Shown here piece after piece: positions 1-10,357 of a stretch of DNA of 33,825 bases. Every line of letters starts with the position of its first letter. Within the stretch, counting starts at the first letter, position 1. The stretch comes from a virus (Duplodnaviria > Heunggongvirae > Uroviricota > Caudoviricetes): IMG/VR virus record IMGVR_UViG_3300045988_128742; one strand, written 5' to 3'. The position numbers and the translations under genes were made by a program. The notes below the pieces were generated by a model. The model had not been told where the DNA came from and did no database searches. It saw only the letters and a list, made by a program, of their open reading frames with translations.

Positions 1-11
1 CCTCTTGCAGG

Positions 12-87
12 GCCGATATAGCTCAGTTGGTAGAGCAGCGCATTCGTAATGCGAAGGTCGTAGGTTCGACTCCTATTATCGGCACCA
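12..87 (+). tRNA. thrW: tRNA-Thr, anticodon CGT (reads ACG)
   Basis: 76-nt cloverleaf read by eye: acceptor stem GCCGATA/TATCGGC, D-arm GCTCAGTTGGTAGAGC, anticodon stem GCGCA/TGCGA with loop TTCGTAA, T-arm GGTTCGACTCC, discriminator A and encoded CCA. Confidence 0.9.
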
Positions 88-101
88 TTAAAATCAATAA
101 G

Positions 102-1265
102 TTACACATCATTAGTACCTTCCTTATTTTTTGACTGGGACAAATTTGGGACCGATGGGTTCAGGATCGAGTCTATTTGCCGTGCGTGTTCGGTAAGGTG
201 ATTAGGTGCAAGGTGAGCATATCGACGAACCATTTCGATAGACTCCCAGCCTCCCATTTCCTGTAACACTGACAACGGGACTCCGGCTTGAACCAGCCAA
301 CTTGCCCAGGTGTGTCTCAAGTCGTGAAATCTGAAATCATCAATACCTGCTCGTCTCAGCGCCGCTTTCCAGGCTGTGTTTGCGTCATACCGCATCTTCC
401 TGACCGTTGGCGCTTTCGTTCCGTCTGGTTTGGTACAGCTTTCCTTGTACACAAATACCCAACGGTGATGATTCCCGATTTGTTTTTTCAATACGCGACA
501 TGCAGTATCATTCAGCGCAACGCCAATTGCGCGGTTTGATTTACTCTCTTCCGGGTTTATCCATGCCACCCGGCGCTGCATATCTATTTGTTGCCATTCA
601 AGGTTGATGATGTTCGAGCGTCTTAAGCCTGTTGCCAGTGCAAATTCAACAACAGACTTTAATGGCTCCGGACATTCATCAATCAGCCTTTGTGCTTCAT
701 GGGGCTCCAGCCAGCGGATCCGTTTATTCTTTGGTTGAGGCACTTTAATAATTGGTGCCTTATCCAGCATTTTCCATTCACGCTCTGCGGCTCTTAGTAG
801 GGCCTTTATAAATGAAAGATGCGTAGCCTTCGTTGCAACGGACGCTGGTTTTGGCGTGTATTCTGGAACAGGTTTCCCTTTTTTTCTGCATGCTTCTGCC
901 CTGAGTTTCCAGTTTTCCTCATGACGCCGGTTCGTCATTTTCTGCATTGCTGAATAAATTTTTGATTCAGTAATGTCTCTTAGTTGCATTCCTGCGAAAT
1001 GTTGAAGCCAGAATCCGATCCGGCTTTTGTCATCGTCCAGTGATTTTTTATGTGCTTTCTCTTCAAGCCACCTGACACACGCTTCCTCGAACGTTATATC
1101 AGGTATTTCACCAAGTTTGCTGACCCGCCATGCTTCAGCCTTTAGCTTGTCATGGAGTTCTGTCGCCTGCCTTTTGTCCTTTGTTCCAAGAGACTGTTTA
1201 AATCTTTTACCGTTCGGCAATGTGAAACTGGCGTACCATATTTCACCTCTGCGGAAGAGTGACAT
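102..1265 (-). CDS. int: Tyrosine site-specific integrase, P22-type
   Basis: 387-aa ORF ending 15 bp from the tRNA 3' end. C-terminal catalytic motifs HDLRHTWAS and VRRYAHL; N-terminus [14 protein letters not shown] matches the P22 Int family as I recall it. ATG at 1265 with GAGGAAAG Shine-Dalgarno (SD) upstream. Confidence 0.95.
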
Positions 1266-2686: not shown

Positions 2687-2741
2687 TTTGTTCTCCACGT
2701 ATATGCGCTGCACCGCGCTGAATTCGGGTAAAAGGAAGCCC

Positions 2742-3190
2742 TCACCGTCCGGCGATTATTGAGTCAATTACATTTCCATAAATGCCCCCGTAGGGGCGGT
2801 TAGTTTCTCCACAAAACAGAGAAGAACACCTGCGGTGGCAGCCGCCCGGATGGATTGGGTTATGAGCCCGTCGTCCGGTGATGCTCTTCTCTGTTTTGTA
2901 AAAAGGACGGTACCAGCCGGAAGCAAGGGTACAAGCTGGTACCGCCAAGACTACACACAGCATAAAGTTGTGGTGCCGGGTGCCTCCCGGTGCCTGGCGA
3001 AGGTTGCACACCAGGCGGGTGGGTATCCACAGAAGGTCGACTGTCAGCCTCAACCTTAACCCGCGTGCGCTGAGCCGCATTCACCACAACGCTAAGGATT
3101 CTCTCTGGTTGAAAATACTTAGCTGTTATGTGCCTGTCTTTTCACCACTTCAGGCTCGGTGGTATCCTTTTAAGCCCGTATACATAAAAG
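2742..3190. other. GC-rich, ORF-poor structured region (candidate ncRNA or cis-acting RNA element)
   Basis: No protein-like ORF in any frame. Perfect 15-bp inverted repeat ACAAAACAGAGAAGA (2811-2825) / TCTTCTCTGTTTTGT (2885-2899) around a 59-nt GC-rich spacer; second 9-bp inverted repeat GGTACCAGC (2909-2917) / GCTGGTACC (2935-2943); hairpin GCCCC-CGTA-GGGGC at 2784-2797. Confidence 0.4.
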
Positions 3191-3199
3191 GAAAATCAA

Positions 3200-3445
3200 A
3201 TGACTTTTGATGAAAAAGAACTTGATAATGCAATTAATAAAATCATCGTAACGTCGCTCTTTTCCTGTCTCAGCGACACTCAGCAAAAACAGTTCTACGA
3301 ATCGGCTTTCAACATGATCGAGCGTTGTTGTTTCTGCGATGCCGACGAGTTACCTGAAAAAATCAGGAAACAGTTGGCTGATGCTCTTCGAGTGCGACTT
3401 TCTGACCAATTTTCTGAAATGTACTCTCCGAATTTGGACAAATAG
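3200..3445 (+). CDS. Hypothetical protein (81 aa), AT-rich
   Basis: ORF with AAGGA SD 9 nt upstream of ATG; opposite orientation to the surrounding leftward operon; its 3' end overlaps the convergent ORF 3363-3638. Confidence 0.4.
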   Translation: MTFDEKELDNAINKIIVTSLFSCLSDTQQKQFYESAFNMIERCCFCDADELPEKIRKQLADALRVRLSDQFSEMYSPNLDK

Positions 3446-3638
3446 AAAAAGGCCATTTCCATTCAGGGTCTGATGGAAATACTTCAGCCTGTTCCAAAGC
3501 ACGGCGTAAAGAGAACACAACTCCAGCCATAATCTGATGTTTCCCATTGGTCCAGCTATCGCCGCTCTGATCTACAGGGGCGGCTATGTCGTATGACCAA
3601 ACGACTTCACAGTTATTGTTTAAAATCTGGACTTTCAT
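3363..3638 (-). CDS. Hypothetical protein, first ORF downstream of the predicted PL promoter
   Basis: Track ORF 3363-3680; start assigned to the internal ATG (MKVQILNNN) preceded by AGGTG SD. No arginine-rich N-like motif. Confidence 0.45.
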   Translation of the reverse strand: MKVQILNNNCEVVWSYDIAAPVDQSGDSWTNGKHQIMAGVVFSLRRALEQAEVFPSDPEWKWPFSICPNSESTFQKIGQKVALEEHQPTVS

Positions 3639-3747
3639 TTCATACACCTGCTTTAACATGAGTGCCTGGTGGCACAACATGACTCAACGAATCATCCTGG
3701 ACTTCATATGCCCCAGGCGGCTACTTCGTGGGCGTCCTGCCTGTACG

Positions 3748-3831: not shown

Positions 3832-4506
3832 TTAGGCTTTGATTTTGTATCTTCTTGGTTTTCCTGAGAAAATCACTGTACCAATTATAGAGCAATTACC
3901 GTTGATCTTAATGTAAGGCTCAGGCCAGTTTGGGTTTAACGCTTTGAGATAACGCTGTGTCCCATCTTCTATCAACCTTTTGAAGGTGGTTTCGCCTGTA
4001 TCGTGCATCAATGCAATAACGTCGTCACCGTGGCAGGCAGGTACTTCAGGATCGACAAAAATCATGTCTCCCGGGCGGTACTCATCAATCATTGAATCAC
4101 CTATCACCCGCAAGATATAAGTCATTTCCCCACAGGGTACAGGGCAGGGATACGTTTCTGCTGTGCTCAAATCAACCTCAGAATATCCAACTTCTTTCCA
4201 TGCTCCGGCCTGTACCCATGATATGACAGGGACTAATGTGATTTGTTTATTAGTGATTGAAACATCAGGTTTTTTTGTGATGTTCGTTGTCTGGTGTTCT
4301 TGATCGAGCCATCCGACAGGCAGGTCGAAACATTTTTCGATGTGTCGTGCCATGCTGTCACCGATATTTTTAGTAGCACCATCTCCCATAAACCTGCTGG
4401 TCTGGGTTGGCTCGCGATCAATCATAGTGGCAAAGGAAGAATTCCCGCCAACACCATCTCTCAGTTTTCTGGCGTTAGACCGCCGGATGTCATGGATTGT
4501 TTTCAT
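3832..4506 (-). CDS. cI: CI-type prophage repressor (N-terminal HTH, C-terminal S24 LexA-like autopeptidase domain)
   Basis: 224 aa; C-terminal domain has the Ser (GDSM) and Lys (TFKRL) dyad context typical of LexA/CI autocleavage; divergent from cro across an operator-rich intergenic region. No SD upstream of the ATG. Confidence 0.85.
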   Translation of the reverse strand: MKTIHDIRRSNARKLRDGVGGNSSFATMIDREPTQTSRFMGDGATKNIGDSMARHIEKCFDLPVGWLDQEHQTTNITKKPDVSITNKQITLVPVISWVQAGAWKEVGYSEVDLSTAETYPCPVPCGEMTYILRVIGDSMIDEYRPGDMIFVDPEVPACHGDDVIALMHDTGETTFKRLIEDGTQRYLKALNPNWPEPYIKINGNCSIIGTVIFSGKPRRYKIKA

Positions 4507-5736: not shown

Positions 5737-6678
5737 ATGAGCACTAAATTAACCGGCTATGTATGGGATGGTTGCGCAGCGTCAGGCATGAAATTATCCA
5801 GCGTGGCAATTATGGCCCGCCTGGCTGATTTCAGTAATGACGAAGGTGTGTGCTGGCCATCAATTGAAACCATTGCCCGCCAGATTGGCGCGGGGATGAG
5901 TACCGTCAGAACGGCTATCGCACGGCTGGAAGCAGAAGGCTGGTTAACGCGTAAGGCGCGTCGCCAGGGTAACCGCAATGCGTCGAATGTTTATCAGCTT
6001 AACGTTGCGAAGCTTCAGGCAGCGGCATTTTCTCAACTGTCAGATTCTGACCCGTCAAAATCTGACGCATCAAAATCTGACCCGTCAAAATTTGATGCGT
6101 CGAAATCTGGCAAAAAAGCGGGTTTTCACCCGTCAGAATCTGGCGGGGATCCGTCAGTAAAATCAAAACATGATCCGTCAGATAAAAAACCTTCTCGTCC
6201 GGACGCTTCGCAACCGGACACGCAGACGGCTGAACAGGATTTTTTAACTCGCCATCCTGATGCGGTTGTATTCAGCCCTAAAAAACGCCAGTGGGGGACG
6301 CAGGATGATTTGACCTGCGCACAGTGGCTCTGGAAAAAAATCATCGCCCTGTACGAGCAGGCTGCCGAATGTGACGGCGAGGTGGTTCGTCCCAAAGAAC
6401 CGAACTGGACAGCCTGGGCAAACGAAATTCGCCTGATGTGTGTGCAGGATGGTCGTACTCACAAACAAATCTGCGAGATGTACAGCCGCGTCAGCCGCGA
6501 TCCGTTCTGGTGCCGTAACGTGCTCAGCCCGTCGAAGCTGCGGGAAAAATGGGATGAGCTTTCCCTGCGCTTATCGCCGTCCGTCAGCACATACACAGAA
6601 AAACGTGAAGATCCGTACTTCAAATCCAGTTACGACAACGTGGACTACAGCCAGATCCCGGCAGGATTCAGGGGGTGA
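5737..6678 (+). CDS. Replication initiator protein (lambda O-like role; N-terminal winged-helix DNA-binding domain) with internal origin
   Basis: 313 aa; N-terminal HTH-like region SIETIARQIGAGMSTVRTAIARLEAEGWL; central tandem peptide repeat DPSKS/DASKS encoded by DNA iterons; GAGG SD upstream of ATG. Confidence 0.75.
   Translation: MSTKLTGYVWDGCAASGMKLSSVAIMARLADFSNDEGVCWPSIETIARQIGAGMSTVRTAIARLEAEGWLTRKARRQGNRNASNVYQLNVAKLQAAAFSQLSDSDPSKSDASKSDPSKFDASKSGKKAGFHPSESGGDPSVKSKHDPSDKKPSRPDASQPDTQTAEQDFLTRHPDAVVFSPKKRQWGTQDDLTCAQWLWKKIIALYEQAAECDGEVVRPKEPNWTAWANEIRLMCVQDGRTHKQICEMYSRVSRDPFWCRNVLSPSKLREKWDELSLRLSPSVSTYTEKREDPYFKSSYDNVDYSQIPAGFRG
6037..6190 (+). repeat. Iteron array (candidate phage origin of replication) inside the replication initiator gene
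   Basis: Five abutting 15-bp direct repeats (6037-6111), approximate consensus CCGTCAAAATCTGAC, plus three further spaced copies (6129-6144, 6152-6165, 6175-6190) and an adjacent A-rich tract. Confidence 0.7.
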
Positions 6679-9361: not shown

Positions 9362-10357
9362 GTGACCGTGAGAGCACTACTGACCCCTGAAATTGCCCCG
9401 CGTATGGGGATCGTATTGTTCAGACCAGGTTCAGAGCTGATGCCCCTGTTTATGCAGGGGCGTGTCCTGCTGGAGCCTGAGCCGGAACGTTATTCATCTT
9501 TCGCCAGTGGTGCCGTTCCGGCGGCATCACAACCGCTGGCGGATGATCCTGCCGTTCAGGCCGTGTTCCGCAATGAGGCAGTGATCCGTCGTGCTGGTGG
9601 CGTGGAATGTCTTGAAAGCTGGTTACTTCGTGAAAAAGGCTGCCAGTGGCCTCATTCCGACTGGCACAGCGAGAACATGACCACAATGCGACACGCTCCG
9701 GGCGCAATCCGTCTGTGCTGGCACTGCGATAACCAGCTGCGCGATCAATTCACGGAACGGCTGGAATCAATGGCAACGGATAACTGTGCCCGCTGGGTGT
9801 TGTCTGTCGTGCGTCGGGATCTCGGTTTTGATGATAGTCACGTTGTGACAATGCCGGAACTGTGCTGGTGGCTGGTTCGTAATGACCTGGCGGATGCCTT
9901 ACCGGAAAGCGCAGCCCGTAAGGCACTGAGATTACCGAAGCCTGTTGTGCCGTCTGTCACCCGGGAAAGTGACCTTGTGCCTTCGGTTCCTGCCACCAGC
10001 ATCATCCAGGATAAAGCGAAAAAGGTGCTGGCGCTGAAAGTGGATCCGGAGTCGCCGGAGTCTTTTATGTTACGTCCCAAACGTCGCCGCTGGGTTAACG
10101 AAAAGTACACGCGCTGGGTTAAGACGCAGCCGTGTGCATGTTGTGGAAAGCCTGCAGATGATCCCCACCACCTGATAGGCCACGGTCAGGGTGGAATGGG
10201 TACAAAAGCGCATGACCTCTTCGTGCTGCCTTTGTGCAGAAAGCATCACGACGAGCTGCATGCGGATACCGTGGTATTTGAAGAAAAGTATGGCTCTCAG
10301 TTGGAGCTGATATTTCGTTTTATCGATCGTGCGCTGGCAATTGGCGTGCTGGCCTGA
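9362..10357 (+). CDS. DUF968-like phage protein with C-terminal HNH/zinc-finger-like motif
   Basis: 331 aa; C-terminus CACCGKPADDPHHL...LCRKHHDELH is an HNH-like Cys/His cluster typical of DUF968 proteins in lambdoid nin regions. GTG start as in the track. Confidence 0.55.
   Translation: MTVRALLTPEIAPRMGIVLFRPGSELMPLFMQGRVLLEPEPERYSSFASGAVPAASQPLADDPAVQAVFRNEAVIRRAGGVECLESWLLREKGCQWPHSDWHSENMTTMRHAPGAIRLCWHCDNQLRDQFTERLESMATDNCARWVLSVVRRDLGFDDSHVVTMPELCWWLVRNDLADALPESAARKALRLPKPVVPSVTRESDLVPSVPATSIIQDKAKKVLALKVDPESPESFMLRPKRRRWVNEKYTRWVKTQPCACCGKPADDPHHLIGHGQGGMGTKAHDLFVLPLCRKHHDELHADTVVFEEKYGSQLELIFRFIDRALAIGVLA

What the first reader, a model, noticed from the sequence alone, without database searches (positions are those of the whole stretch)
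2742..3190. About 450 bp of GC-rich, ORF-free, hairpin-rich sequence inside the early-left operon
Flanking genes are tightly packed and translationally coupled, yet this stretch has only junk-like ORFs in several frames. It carries a perfect 15-bp inverted repeat (2811-2825 / 2885-2899) around a 59-nt GC-rich spacer, a 9-bp GGTACCAGC/GCTGGTACC inverted repeat, and a GCCCC-CGTA-GGGGC hairpin. It lies downstream of the predicted PL promoter. It could be a structured ncRNA, a cis-acting antitermination or terminator cluster, or decayed coding sequence.
Basis: partly seen in the sequence, partly recalled or inferred. Interest (0 to 1): 0.55.

Follow-up and report, generated by a model that had tools for sequence, protein, structure and literature searches.

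The report
Structured non-coding leader RNA in prophage
The stretch does not code for protein: on the minus strand it encodes a divergent relative of the prophage small RNA STnc100 that ends in a transcription terminator, followed at once by a conserved tRNA-like RNA fold that matches no Rfam family and whose tip is identical to the anticodon arm of the initiator tRNA.

Summary
Window 2687-3199 is a 513-bp gene-free gap in an SfV/SfII-like prophage at thrW. It is richer in G+C than its flanks, and its minus-strand RNA folds far better than shuffled sequence (z -5.1 and -7.9). All three inverted repeats exist.

Read on the minus strand, in the direction of PL, the gap is a chain of RNA modules:
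- A 5' hairpin and a multi-helix domain matching Rfam STnc100 just below threshold (43.4 bits, cut-off 47, E 9e-8).
- A conserved single-stranded linker.
- An intrinsic terminator. Relatives keep the hairpin and U tract while the stem sequence changes.
- Abutting the U tract, a three-way junction.

The junction covaries across about 20 enterobacterial genera (96% paired, 10 pairs changed on both sides) and has no Rfam match. Its tip shares 14 nt with the initiator tRNA anticodon stem-loop. Shorter copies with an NCCA end follow tRNA genes in other phages.

No reading frame is conserved, so decayed coding sequence is rejected.

Likely role, inferred: the terminator makes an sRNA 3' end, and read-through transcripts are processed at the long stem. 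The function of the tRNA-like core is unknown.

The parts
3129..3163 (.). 35-nt lambdoid boundary element. It sits between the RNA modules and the 5' region of the plus-strand ORF 3200-3445. It is not part of the STnc100-like match.
   Evidence: About 94% identical to lambda 34,394-34,428, P22 and HK620, in the region next to the sieB promoter. It is also present upstream of the same RNA modules in other genera.
3091..3123 (-). 5' hairpin of the STnc100-like RNA (GCUAAG...CUUAGC).
   Evidence: Inverted repeat I2. Paired in the minimum-energy fold. Covered by Rfam STnc100 model positions 1-30.
2967..3089 (-). Multi-helix domain closed by GUUGUGGUG (3089-3081) and CACCACAAC (2975-2967). It contains the STnc100 core CACCGGGAGGCACCCGGCACCA.
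   Evidence: Rfam STnc100 RF02076: 43.4 bits against a gathering score of 47, E 9.4e-8, full model 1-206, minus strand 3120-2897. Fold. The closing helix is kept in 7 of 7 divergent relatives. The hairpin CCGGG-AGGCA-CCCGG becomes GGUGG-AGGCA-CCACC in other genera.
2947..2966 (-). Conserved single-stranded linker UUUAUGCUGUGUGUAGUCUU, a candidate seed for base pairing.
   Evidence: Unpaired in the fold. GCUGUGUGUAGUCUU is kept in E. coli, phiNP, Citrobacter, Buttiauxella, Enterobacter and Pseudocitrobacter, with one change in ST64B, even where the upstream domain differs or is absent.
2900..2946 (-). Intrinsic terminator: 12-bp stem (2946-2935 / 2917-2906), 17-nt loop, then C and U5 (2904-2900).
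   Evidence: In 22 of 23 diverse loci a G+C-rich hairpin ends just before a run of U5 to U7, while the stem sequences differ, for example GUCGGCGUC/GACGCCGAC in ST64B.
2811..2899 (-). tRNA-like three-way junction. P1 is a 20-bp stem (2899-2880 / 2830-2811). P2 is an arm at 2878-2846 with loop CUCAUAA (2866-2860) on a GGG/CCC stem. P3 is a small hairpin at 2845-2832.
   Evidence: Fold z -7.9. Pair counts: 96.4% of cells paired, 10 pairs with changes on both sides, 0/500 shuffles as good, 38-50% paired when the partners are slid. The covariance model scores 116.8 bits on the minus strand and 41.4 bits on the plus strand. The 14-mer CGGGCUCAUAACCC is identical to the anticodon stem-loop of E. coli metY. 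No Rfam family and no ARAGORN tRNA call.
2784..2810 (-). Conserved GGAGAAAC (2810-2803), a short spacer, and the G+C hairpin GCCCCUACGGGGGC (2797-2784).
   Evidence: GGAGA(A/U)AC followed by a hairpin of varying sequence precedes the first downstream gene in all diverse loci.
2687..2783 (-). 5' untranslated region of the yfdR-like 5'-deoxynucleotidase gene (ATG at 2686).
   Evidence: PGAP annotation of a 100% identical genome. phrog_318 match, E 4e-109. Sequence.
3164..3199 (+). 5' untranslated or promoter region of the plus-strand ORF 3200-3445 (phrog_3311).
   Evidence: The promoter itself was not resolved.

Best explanation
The interval is a non-coding, RNA-structured spacer of the early-left (PL) transcription unit. 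It is read on the minus strand.

Shown:
- It carries a roughly 225-nt module with the anatomy of an Hfq-type prophage sRNA: a 5' hairpin, a multi-helix domain related to STnc100, a conserved single-stranded stretch, and an intrinsic terminator with a U tail.
- With no spacer after the U tract, it carries a conserved three-way-junction RNA. The long arm ends in a copy of the initiator tRNA anticodon stem-loop.

Inferred:
- After induction, PL transcripts that stop at the terminator give the sRNA its 3' end.
- Polymerases that read through, possibly made terminator-resistant by a conserved structured leader just after PL, also transcribe the junction.
- The long duplex of the junction is then a likely RNase III processing site. 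Cleavage would separate the sRNA from the downstream yfdR...xis-int mRNA and release the tRNA-like core.

The function of the core and the targets of the sRNA are unknown.
For: Strand and context:
- PL lies at 3792-3765 and all flanking early-left genes are on the minus strand.

STnc100-like module:
- Full-length Rfam match on the minus strand, E 9.4e-8. Homologues in SfV (39.5 bits) and ST64B (35.1 bits) sit in the same place.

Terminator:
- A hairpin plus U tract is kept in 22 of 23 loci from about 20 genera, although the stem sequences differ.

Three-way junction:
- 34 pairs, 96.4% of cells paired, 10 pairs with changes on both sides, 0/500 shuffles as good. Slid controls give 38-50% paired.
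- Invariant G-U pairs, which would be A-C mismatches on the other strand.
- The covariance model scores 117 bits on the minus strand and 41 bits on the plus strand.
- P1 starts directly after the U tract in every aligned sequence.

Conserved position:
- In ST64B and phiNP the 800-1000 bp between cI/PL and the first early-left gene carry no annotated gene and hold the same modules.

Non-coding:
- Indel polymorphisms of 1 nt and 7 nt occur among otherwise 96-100% identical copies.
- Stops are present in all six frames in L045, and a frame shift separates the window from ST64B.
- 46 polymorphic sites fall 13/15/18 over the three codon phases (hand count).
- No Pfam hit.

Precedent:
- Lambda PreS is an Hfq-dependent sRNA of the early-left operon whose 3' end is the terminator tL2a (bioRxiv 10.1101/2024.10.31.621285).
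Against: - The STnc100 match is below Rfam's gathering score and did not appear in the whole-window search at threshold.
- No expression, Hfq-binding or end-mapping data were found for this early-left copy. EDL933, for which RNA-seq exists, lacks this prophage segment.
- No promoter of its own was found for the sRNA. Its 5' end would then need processing from a PL transcript about 850 nt long.
- RNase III cleavage of P1 is inferred only from stem length.
- No target for the candidate seed was found in the window.
- The STnc100-like domain is absent from some related loci, so it is dispensable for whatever the terminator and junction do.
Confidence: 0.7

Rival explanations
1. A pure terminator and insulator cluster. 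The hairpins only stop or attenuate transcription between the immunity-proximal genes and the yfdR-xis-int genes. No RNA product has a function of its own.
For: - A clear intrinsic terminator is conserved.
- The STnc100-like domain is optional in relatives.
- No target for the linker was found in the window.
Against: - A terminator needs neither a 120-nt multi-helix domain with a conserved AGGCA loop nor an invariant 15-nt single-stranded stretch.
- It does not explain a three-way junction downstream of the U tract with nearly invariant unpaired bases and covarying stems.
- The same junction core occurs in tRNA arrays, where no terminator precedes it.
Confidence: 0.15
2. A real or decayed protein-coding gene. 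The candidates are the minus-strand 112-aa ORF (2742-3080), which PGAP calls a frameshifted hypothetical protein, and the plus-strand ORF 2835-3059, which matches phrog_3651.
For: - PGAP pseudogene call in a 100% identical genome.
- phrog_3651 match, E 3e-49.
- 'Hypothetical protein' features in several phage records.
Against: - Annotators disagree on strand and frame. SfV, ST64B and phiNP annotate no gene here.
- Natural 1-nt and 7-nt indels occur.
- A 1-nt difference puts a stop after 7 codons of the 112-aa frame in ST64B.
- L045 has stops in all six frames.
- Polymorphisms show no third-position excess: 13/15/18 (hand count).
- No Pfam domain.
- The plus-strand ORF would run antisense through a 20-bp stem whose changes are compensatory at the RNA level.
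- PHROGs are built from predicted ORFs, so a family can arise from a conserved non-coding region.
Confidence: 0.04
3. A DNA-level element: a miniature inverted-repeat insertion, a recombination or boundary site, or a protein-binding palindrome.
For: - The region is mosaic, with sharp homology breakpoints at 2786, 2948 and about 3163.
- A lambdoid boundary sequence lies at 3129-3163.
- The STnc100-like domain is flanked by similar CACAAC motifs and is present in some loci and absent in others.
Against: - The stems contain invariant G-U pairs that are A-C mismatches on the other strand, and the covariance model strongly prefers one strand.
- The junction always sits at the same place relative to a terminator and a downstream gene.
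- Its unpaired loops are the most conserved bases, which is typical of RNA rather than of a palindromic DNA site.
Confidence: 0.04
4. The junction is a cis-acting translational or stability control of the first downstream gene. For example, its CAU loop could pair with the start-codon region, or the GGAGAAAC motif could be sequestered, rather than the junction being a processing site.
For: - GGAGAAAC and a hairpin always follow the junction and precede the first gene.
- Many downstream genes start AUGAG, which is complementary to CUCAU.
- The U tract can pair with GGAGA to extend P1.
Against: - Complementarity to AUG is trivial and cannot be evaluated.
- In this window the next real gene starts about 125 nt further on, with its own GGAG.
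- The type C copies in tRNA arrays are not followed by the GGAGAAAC motif; where examined (L007) a further ~100 nt and a terminator-like hairpin come first.
Confidence: 0.07

Closest known systems
STnc100 (Rfam RF02076) and the related PasD sRNAs of lambdoid prophages
   Same: - Full-length alignment to the model.
- Shared closing helix UGGUG...CACCA and core CACCGGGAGGCACCCGGCACCA.
- A 5' hairpin and a 3' intrinsic terminator, about 200-225 nt in all, in a lambdoid prophage.
- The family is reported as prophage-borne and associated with Hfq. STnc100 copies are expressed in EHEC and one copy was confirmed by Northern blot. The function is still unknown.
   Different: - Scores 43.4 bits, below the 47-bit gathering score.
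- The interior helices differ, and the pre-terminator single-stranded stretch has a different sequence.
- It lies in the early-left operon next to int-xis. The published contexts are downstream of stx2, near Q, LpxR and lysis genes (PasD), or next to Fels-1 prophage genes.
- Apart from two early-left type A loci (L139, L217), only weak or partial junction matches (21-31 bits) appeared in the 99 loci recovered with the STnc100 core.
Lambda PreS (LPR1), an sRNA of the early-left operon ending at terminator tL2a
   Same: An sRNA embedded in the PL operon whose 3' end is an intrinsic terminator of that operon. It is made during lytic growth and processed at its 5' side.
   Different: - No sequence relationship.
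- PreS is 68-88 nt and lies between ea10 and ral.
- No tRNA-like element is described after it in the passages read.
Read-through-dependent RNase III sites: lambda sib retroregulation and T7 early mRNA processing sites (from established knowledge)
   Same: A long duplex of 20-25 bp that exists only in transcripts that pass a terminator. It sits between an upstream RNA and downstream genes of an antiterminated phage operon.
   Different: - In sib, the extended stem is formed by the terminator hairpin itself.
- Here a separate stem starts at the U tract and caps a conserved junction.
- Cleavage was not tested.
tRNA and tRNA-like RNAs processed by RNase P, such as P1/P7 C4 and P4 CI (from established knowledge)
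   Same: - The tip of P2 equals the initiator tRNA anticodon stem-loop: 14 of 14 nt including the three G-C pairs.
- Related 71-nt copies lie in phage tRNA arrays. They have a 6-bp acceptor-like stem followed by (A/G)CCA, and a hairpin where the T arm would be.
   Different: - No cloverleaf and no D arm, and the T-loop is atypical.
- Not called by ARAGORN or by the Rfam tRNA model.
- In this window the acceptor is replaced by a 20-bp stem with no CCA.
HK022/HK639 put antiterminator RNAs
   Same: The same kind of phage (HK022-like repressors are noted for ST64B) and the same need to pass terminators in the PL operon. A conserved structured 65-nt RNA lies directly after PL, as putL does.
   Different: - The finding's interval itself is about 640 nt from PL and has no likeness to put.
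- The PL-proximal leader shares only two short blocks with putL and gave no BLAST match.

Membership tests
STnc100 (RF02076) | Score at or above the curated gathering threshold (47 bits) | tested here: not met
   43.4 bits in the window. SfV scores 39.5 and ST64B 35.1. Absent from the threshold search of the whole window.
STnc100 (RF02076) | Full-length match with the conserved closing helix and the CACCGGGAGGCACCCGGCACCA core | tested here: met
   Model positions 1-206 aligned, E 9.4e-8. The core is identical.
STnc100 (RF02076) | 3' intrinsic terminator | tested here: met
   12-bp stem plus U5 at 2946-2900, conserved by compensation.
STnc100 (RF02076) | Expressed, Hfq-associated small RNA | not testable with these tools
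   Published data concern other copies. EDL933 lacks this segment.
PasD sRNA | Sequence similarity to PasD1/PasD2, and a location near Q and LpxR | not tested
The published context (Q antiterminator, LpxR) differs from this early-left site.
Intrinsic (Rho-independent) terminator | G+C-rich hairpin immediately followed by a U tract on the transcribed strand | tested here: met
Intrinsic (Rho-independent) terminator | Structure conserved while sequence changes | tested here: met
   22 of 23 loci keep the hairpin and a run of U5 to U7, with at least 6 different stem sequences.
tRNA | Cloverleaf recognised by tRNA models | tested here: not met
   ARAGORN finds only tRNA-Thr at 12-87. There is no Rfam tRNA hit at 2811-2899 at E up to 10.
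tRNA | Anticodon stem-loop | tested here: met
   CGGGCUCAUAACCC is identical to metY. CAU is kept in all variants seen.
tRNA | Acceptor stem followed by NCCA | tested here: not met
   In the window P1 is 20 bp and is followed by GGAGAAAC. The feature is met only by the type C relatives in other phages.
HK022-type put antiterminator RNA | About 70-nt two-stem RNA close to the early promoter, similar in sequence to putL/putR | tested here: not met
   The interval is about 640 nt from PL and shows no similarity. For the separate leader at 3746-3681 the position fits, but the similarity is inconclusive.
RNase III processing or retroregulation site | About 20 bp or more of near-continuous duplex RNA | tested here: met
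   P1 is 20 bp and can extend to 25 bp with the U tract.
RNase III processing or retroregulation site | Cleavage by RNase III in vivo or in vitro | not testable with these tools
   No data are available.
Protein-coding gene (phrog_3651, or the PGAP hypothetical protein) | One reading frame kept open across relatives, with codon-patterned substitution | tested here: not met

The most novel reading that the evidence does not exclude
The conserved core of the three-way junction (arms P2 and P3) is a functional small RNA in its own right. It would be a D-arm-less, L-shaped mimic of initiator tRNA that temperate enterobacterial phages produce in two ways:
- from tRNA arrays in the late operon, with an acceptor stem and a CCA end, presumably cut out by RNase P;
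- from read-through PL transcripts, cut out through a 20-bp RNase III stem, as in this window.

Its invariant CAU loop on three G-C pairs would engage a factor that reads the initiator anticodon arm. Candidates are VapC-type nucleases that cleave initiator tRNA, MetRS, or the 30S P site. It would act as a decoy or modulator during phage development.
Probability: 0.12. Interest if true: 0.85.

Novelty: new variant of a known kind. Interest (0 to 1): 0.55.

Why it matters
- It shows that about 500 bp annotated inconsistently as hypothetical proteins, pseudogene or nothing in thousands of E. coli, Shigella and Salmonella prophages are RNA-coding. The element matched 2,788 of 5,426 complete E. coli genomes.
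- It brings out a strongly covarying tRNA-like motif, absent from Rfam, that sits exactly at the 3' end of an upstream stable RNA in two different phage operons.
- If the core proves to be an initiator-tRNA mimic, it would be a new kind of phage-host interaction. If it is only a processing signal, it still explains how an sRNA 3' end can be made in an operon whose polymerase may ignore terminators.

Tried and rejected
- A second copy in the window: none found by BLAST or by the covariance model.
- pawZ of E. coli K-12 as a possible name for this RNA: a recollection. The literature search gave nothing relevant, and from memory pawZ is an argW fragment at attR.
- tRNA detection in the window and in relatives: only ordinary tRNAs.
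- Similarity of the region or of the PL leader to HK022 or HK639 putL: no BLAST match, only two short shared blocks. The King 2011 paper on put-like RNAs is not held.
- Expression data from EDL933: its thrW prophage remnant lacks this segment, and its 11 annotated STnc100 copies lie elsewhere.
- A target for the conserved linker inside the window: only the linker itself matched. Host targets could not be scanned.
- Rfam matches to DicF, STnc310, MIR1094 and others at E 0.2-6: treated as chance.
- Literature searches for the loop sequence and for tRNA-like elements in lambdoid phages: nothing relevant.
- Pairing of the CAU loop with the linker or with downstream start codons: no convincing covariation on inspection.
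- RNAalifold on seven divergent STnc100-like domains: it supports the closing helix and some hairpins, but the alignment of the interior is poor.

Full report
**Context.** The window starts with tRNA-Thr (12-87). An integrase follows on the minus strand, then xis, yfdT-like and yfdS-like genes, and a yfdR-like 5'-deoxynucleotidase. It is 100% identical over the queried 501 bp to prophages at thrW in several E. coli genomes. It is 98-99% identical to phages SKA5 and SfII and 98% identical to SfV. The cI-like repressor is at 3832-4506 (minus strand). Its terminator is at 3820-3801, and a PL-like promoter (TTGACA-16-CATAAT) is at 3792-3765. PL transcription therefore crosses the finding from right to left, on the minus strand.

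**The observation.**
- G+C is 0.54-0.55 in the region against 0.40-0.50 in the flanks.
- Minus-strand RNA 3125-2890 folds with z = -5.1, and RNA 2905-2775 with z = -7.9. No shuffle in 200 folds as well.
- The true gene-free gap is 2687-3199. ORFs of 74-112 aa exist in it.

**Coding is rejected.**
- Annotators disagree. PGAP calls a frameshifted minus-strand pseudogene. SKA5 has a plus-strand ORF. SfV annotates only a terminator. ST64B and phiNP leave 800-1000 bp unannotated.
- The plus-strand ORF 2835-3059 matches phrog_3651. The 112-aa minus-strand ORF matches nothing, and there is no Pfam hit.
- Among 42 copies that are 96-100% identical there are 1-nt insertions and a 7-nt duplication.
- The 46 substitution sites fall 13/15/18 over the three codon phases (hand count).
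- A 1-nt difference in ST64B puts a stop after 7 codons of the 112-aa frame. L045 has stops in all six frames.

**Module 1: an STnc100-like RNA.** A sensitive Rfam search gives STnc100 (RF02076) on the minus strand at 3120-2897.
- The score is 43.4 bits against a gathering score of 47, with E 9.4e-8. The full model aligns, and the core CACCGGGAGGCACCCGGCACCA is identical.
- At the gathering threshold, nothing but the tRNA is reported in the window.
- SfV and ST64B homologues score 39.5 and 35.1 bits.
- The fold has a 5' hairpin (3123-3091), a multi-branched domain closed by GUUGUGGUG/CACCACAAC (3089-2967), and an unpaired linker (2966-2947). A 12-bp hairpin and then C and U5 follow (2946-2900).

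Across about 20 enterobacterial genera several features are kept:
- The closing helix is kept.
- The hairpin with loop AGGCA covaries (CCGGG/CCCGG against GGUGG/CCACC).
- The linker GCUGUGUGUAGUCUU is nearly invariant.
- The terminator keeps its hairpin and U tract although the stem sequence is replaced.
- The interior domain is variable, and it is absent in two loci.

The papers read describe STnc100 and the related PasD as prophage sRNAs of unknown function. PasD was found on Hfq by RIL-seq. They were found near Q, stx and lysis genes, and one STnc100 copy was confirmed by Northern blot in EHEC. The copy here is a divergent relative in a new position, the early-left operon. A precedent for an sRNA that ends at a terminator of the PL operon is lambda PreS.

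**Module 2: a tRNA-like three-way junction.** P1 starts at the base after the U tract. It encloses a long arm, P2 (2878-2846), and a small hairpin, P3.

I collected relatives with exact-pattern scans of viral contigs and of one genome per species. An alignment of 30 distinct sequences gives these counts (a first set is):
- 96.4% of pair cells form standard pairs.
- 10 of 34 pairs show changes on both sides, in 53 cells.
- No shuffle in 500 does as well.
- Only 38-50% of cells pair when the partners are slid.

G-U pairs that never vary fix the strand. So does the covariance model, which scores 116.8 bits on the minus strand and 41.4 bits on the plus strand.

The tip of P2, CGGGCUCAUAACCC, is identical to the anticodon stem-loop of E. 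coli initiator tRNA metY, including its three G-C pairs. CAU is kept in every variant seen. No Rfam family and no tRNA finder reports the element.

The model was built only from early-left copies. It also finds a shorter form at 31-43 bits (E 1e-8 to 6e-5).
- This form is 71 nt long. It has a 6-bp acceptor-like stem, usually followed by (A/G)CCA.
- Where a neighbour could be identified, it lies 6 nt after a tRNA gene. In RCIP0098 these tRNA genes lie just downstream of Q.
- One contig carries both forms.

Apart from two early-left type A loci, the 99 contigs recovered with the STnc100 core gave only weak or partial junction matches.

**Downstream and upstream pieces.** The 5' UTR of the next gene follows. 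At the right edge, 3129-3163 is a 35-nt sequence shared with lambda, P22 and HK620 next to the sieB promoter region. It is a module boundary rather than part of the RNA.

**How it probably works.**

Shown:
- The region is non-coding.
- The RNA strand is the minus strand.
- The terminator is conserved.
- The junction is conserved and abuts the U tract.

Inferred:
- PL transcripts that terminate at 2900-2905 yield an RNA with a hairpin and U tail, as Hfq-dependent sRNAs have.
- Read-through transcripts contain P1. A duplex of this length is a plausible RNase III substrate. Cleavage would free the sRNA 3' region, release the junction core, and give the downstream mRNA a new 5' end.
- In both genomic contexts the element lies 0-6 nt after the mature 3' end of an upstream stable RNA, either a terminator tail or a tRNA CCA end. 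This fits a processing role.

Read-through may be promoted by a conserved structured RNA of about 65 nt directly after PL (3746-3681).
- It has a covarying closing stem and hairpin.
- It occupies the place of HK022 putL.
- It shows only two short shared blocks with putL of HK022 or HK639.

I could not test what the junction core does.

**Verdict.** A cis-acting antiterminator, if there is one, lies elsewhere. The region combines a divergent member-like relative of a known sRNA family with a conserved tRNA-like motif that I could not find in Rfam or in the papers held.

Noticed in passing
window 3681-3746 (minus strand): A conserved structured RNA of about 65 nt lies directly after PL. It occurs downstream of several different promoter-proximal (operator) sequences and in many genera. 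Its closing stem and a hairpin covary: 5 pairs show changes on both sides. It occupies the position of HK022 putL and is about the same size, but it has no clear sequence similarity to putL and no Rfam match. It is a candidate antiterminator RNA.
   Followed up: partly
window 3129-3163: A 35-nt sequence, about 94% identical to lambda 34,394-34,428, P22 and HK620, where it lies beside the sieB promoter region. Here it precedes a different plus-strand ORF (3200-3445, phrog_3311) that sits at the sieB position. It looks like a lambdoid module-boundary sequence.
   Followed up: partly
L007 1503-1575; L105 6041-6144 and 14615-14681; L223 756-822: 71-nt relatives of the junction lie a few bases after tRNA genes (downstream of Q where the context was annotated) in phages of Klebsiella and related hosts. 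They have an acceptor-like stem, usually followed by (A/G)CCA, and a CAU loop. tRNA finders do not call them. One contig carries both this form and the early-left form.
   Followed up: partly
L001 (SfV) 5964-6152: SfV carries isrK-like and C4 antisense RNA genes downstream of cro (64 and 82 bits). This otherwise similar window has neither at Rfam threshold.
   Followed up: no
L239 and L247 (upstream of the junction): In two genomes the STnc100-like domain is missing. The 35-nt element runs straight into the conserved linker, the terminator and the junction. Where the domain is present it is flanked by similar CACAAC motifs, which suggests insertion or loss of a module, or alternative pairing with GUUGUG.
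   Followed up: no
window 3200-3445 (+) and 3363-3680 (-): Two small conserved ORFs of unknown function (phrog_3311 and phrog_3195) converge and overlap by 83 bp between PL and the RNA modules. No N-like protein is evident at the N position.
   Followed up: no
L261 (HK639) 9911-9970: The HK639 record annotates an 'M3-like RNA' after cII and a 'putL-like antiterminator RNA' after PL. Neither resembles the elements of this window.
   Followed up: partly
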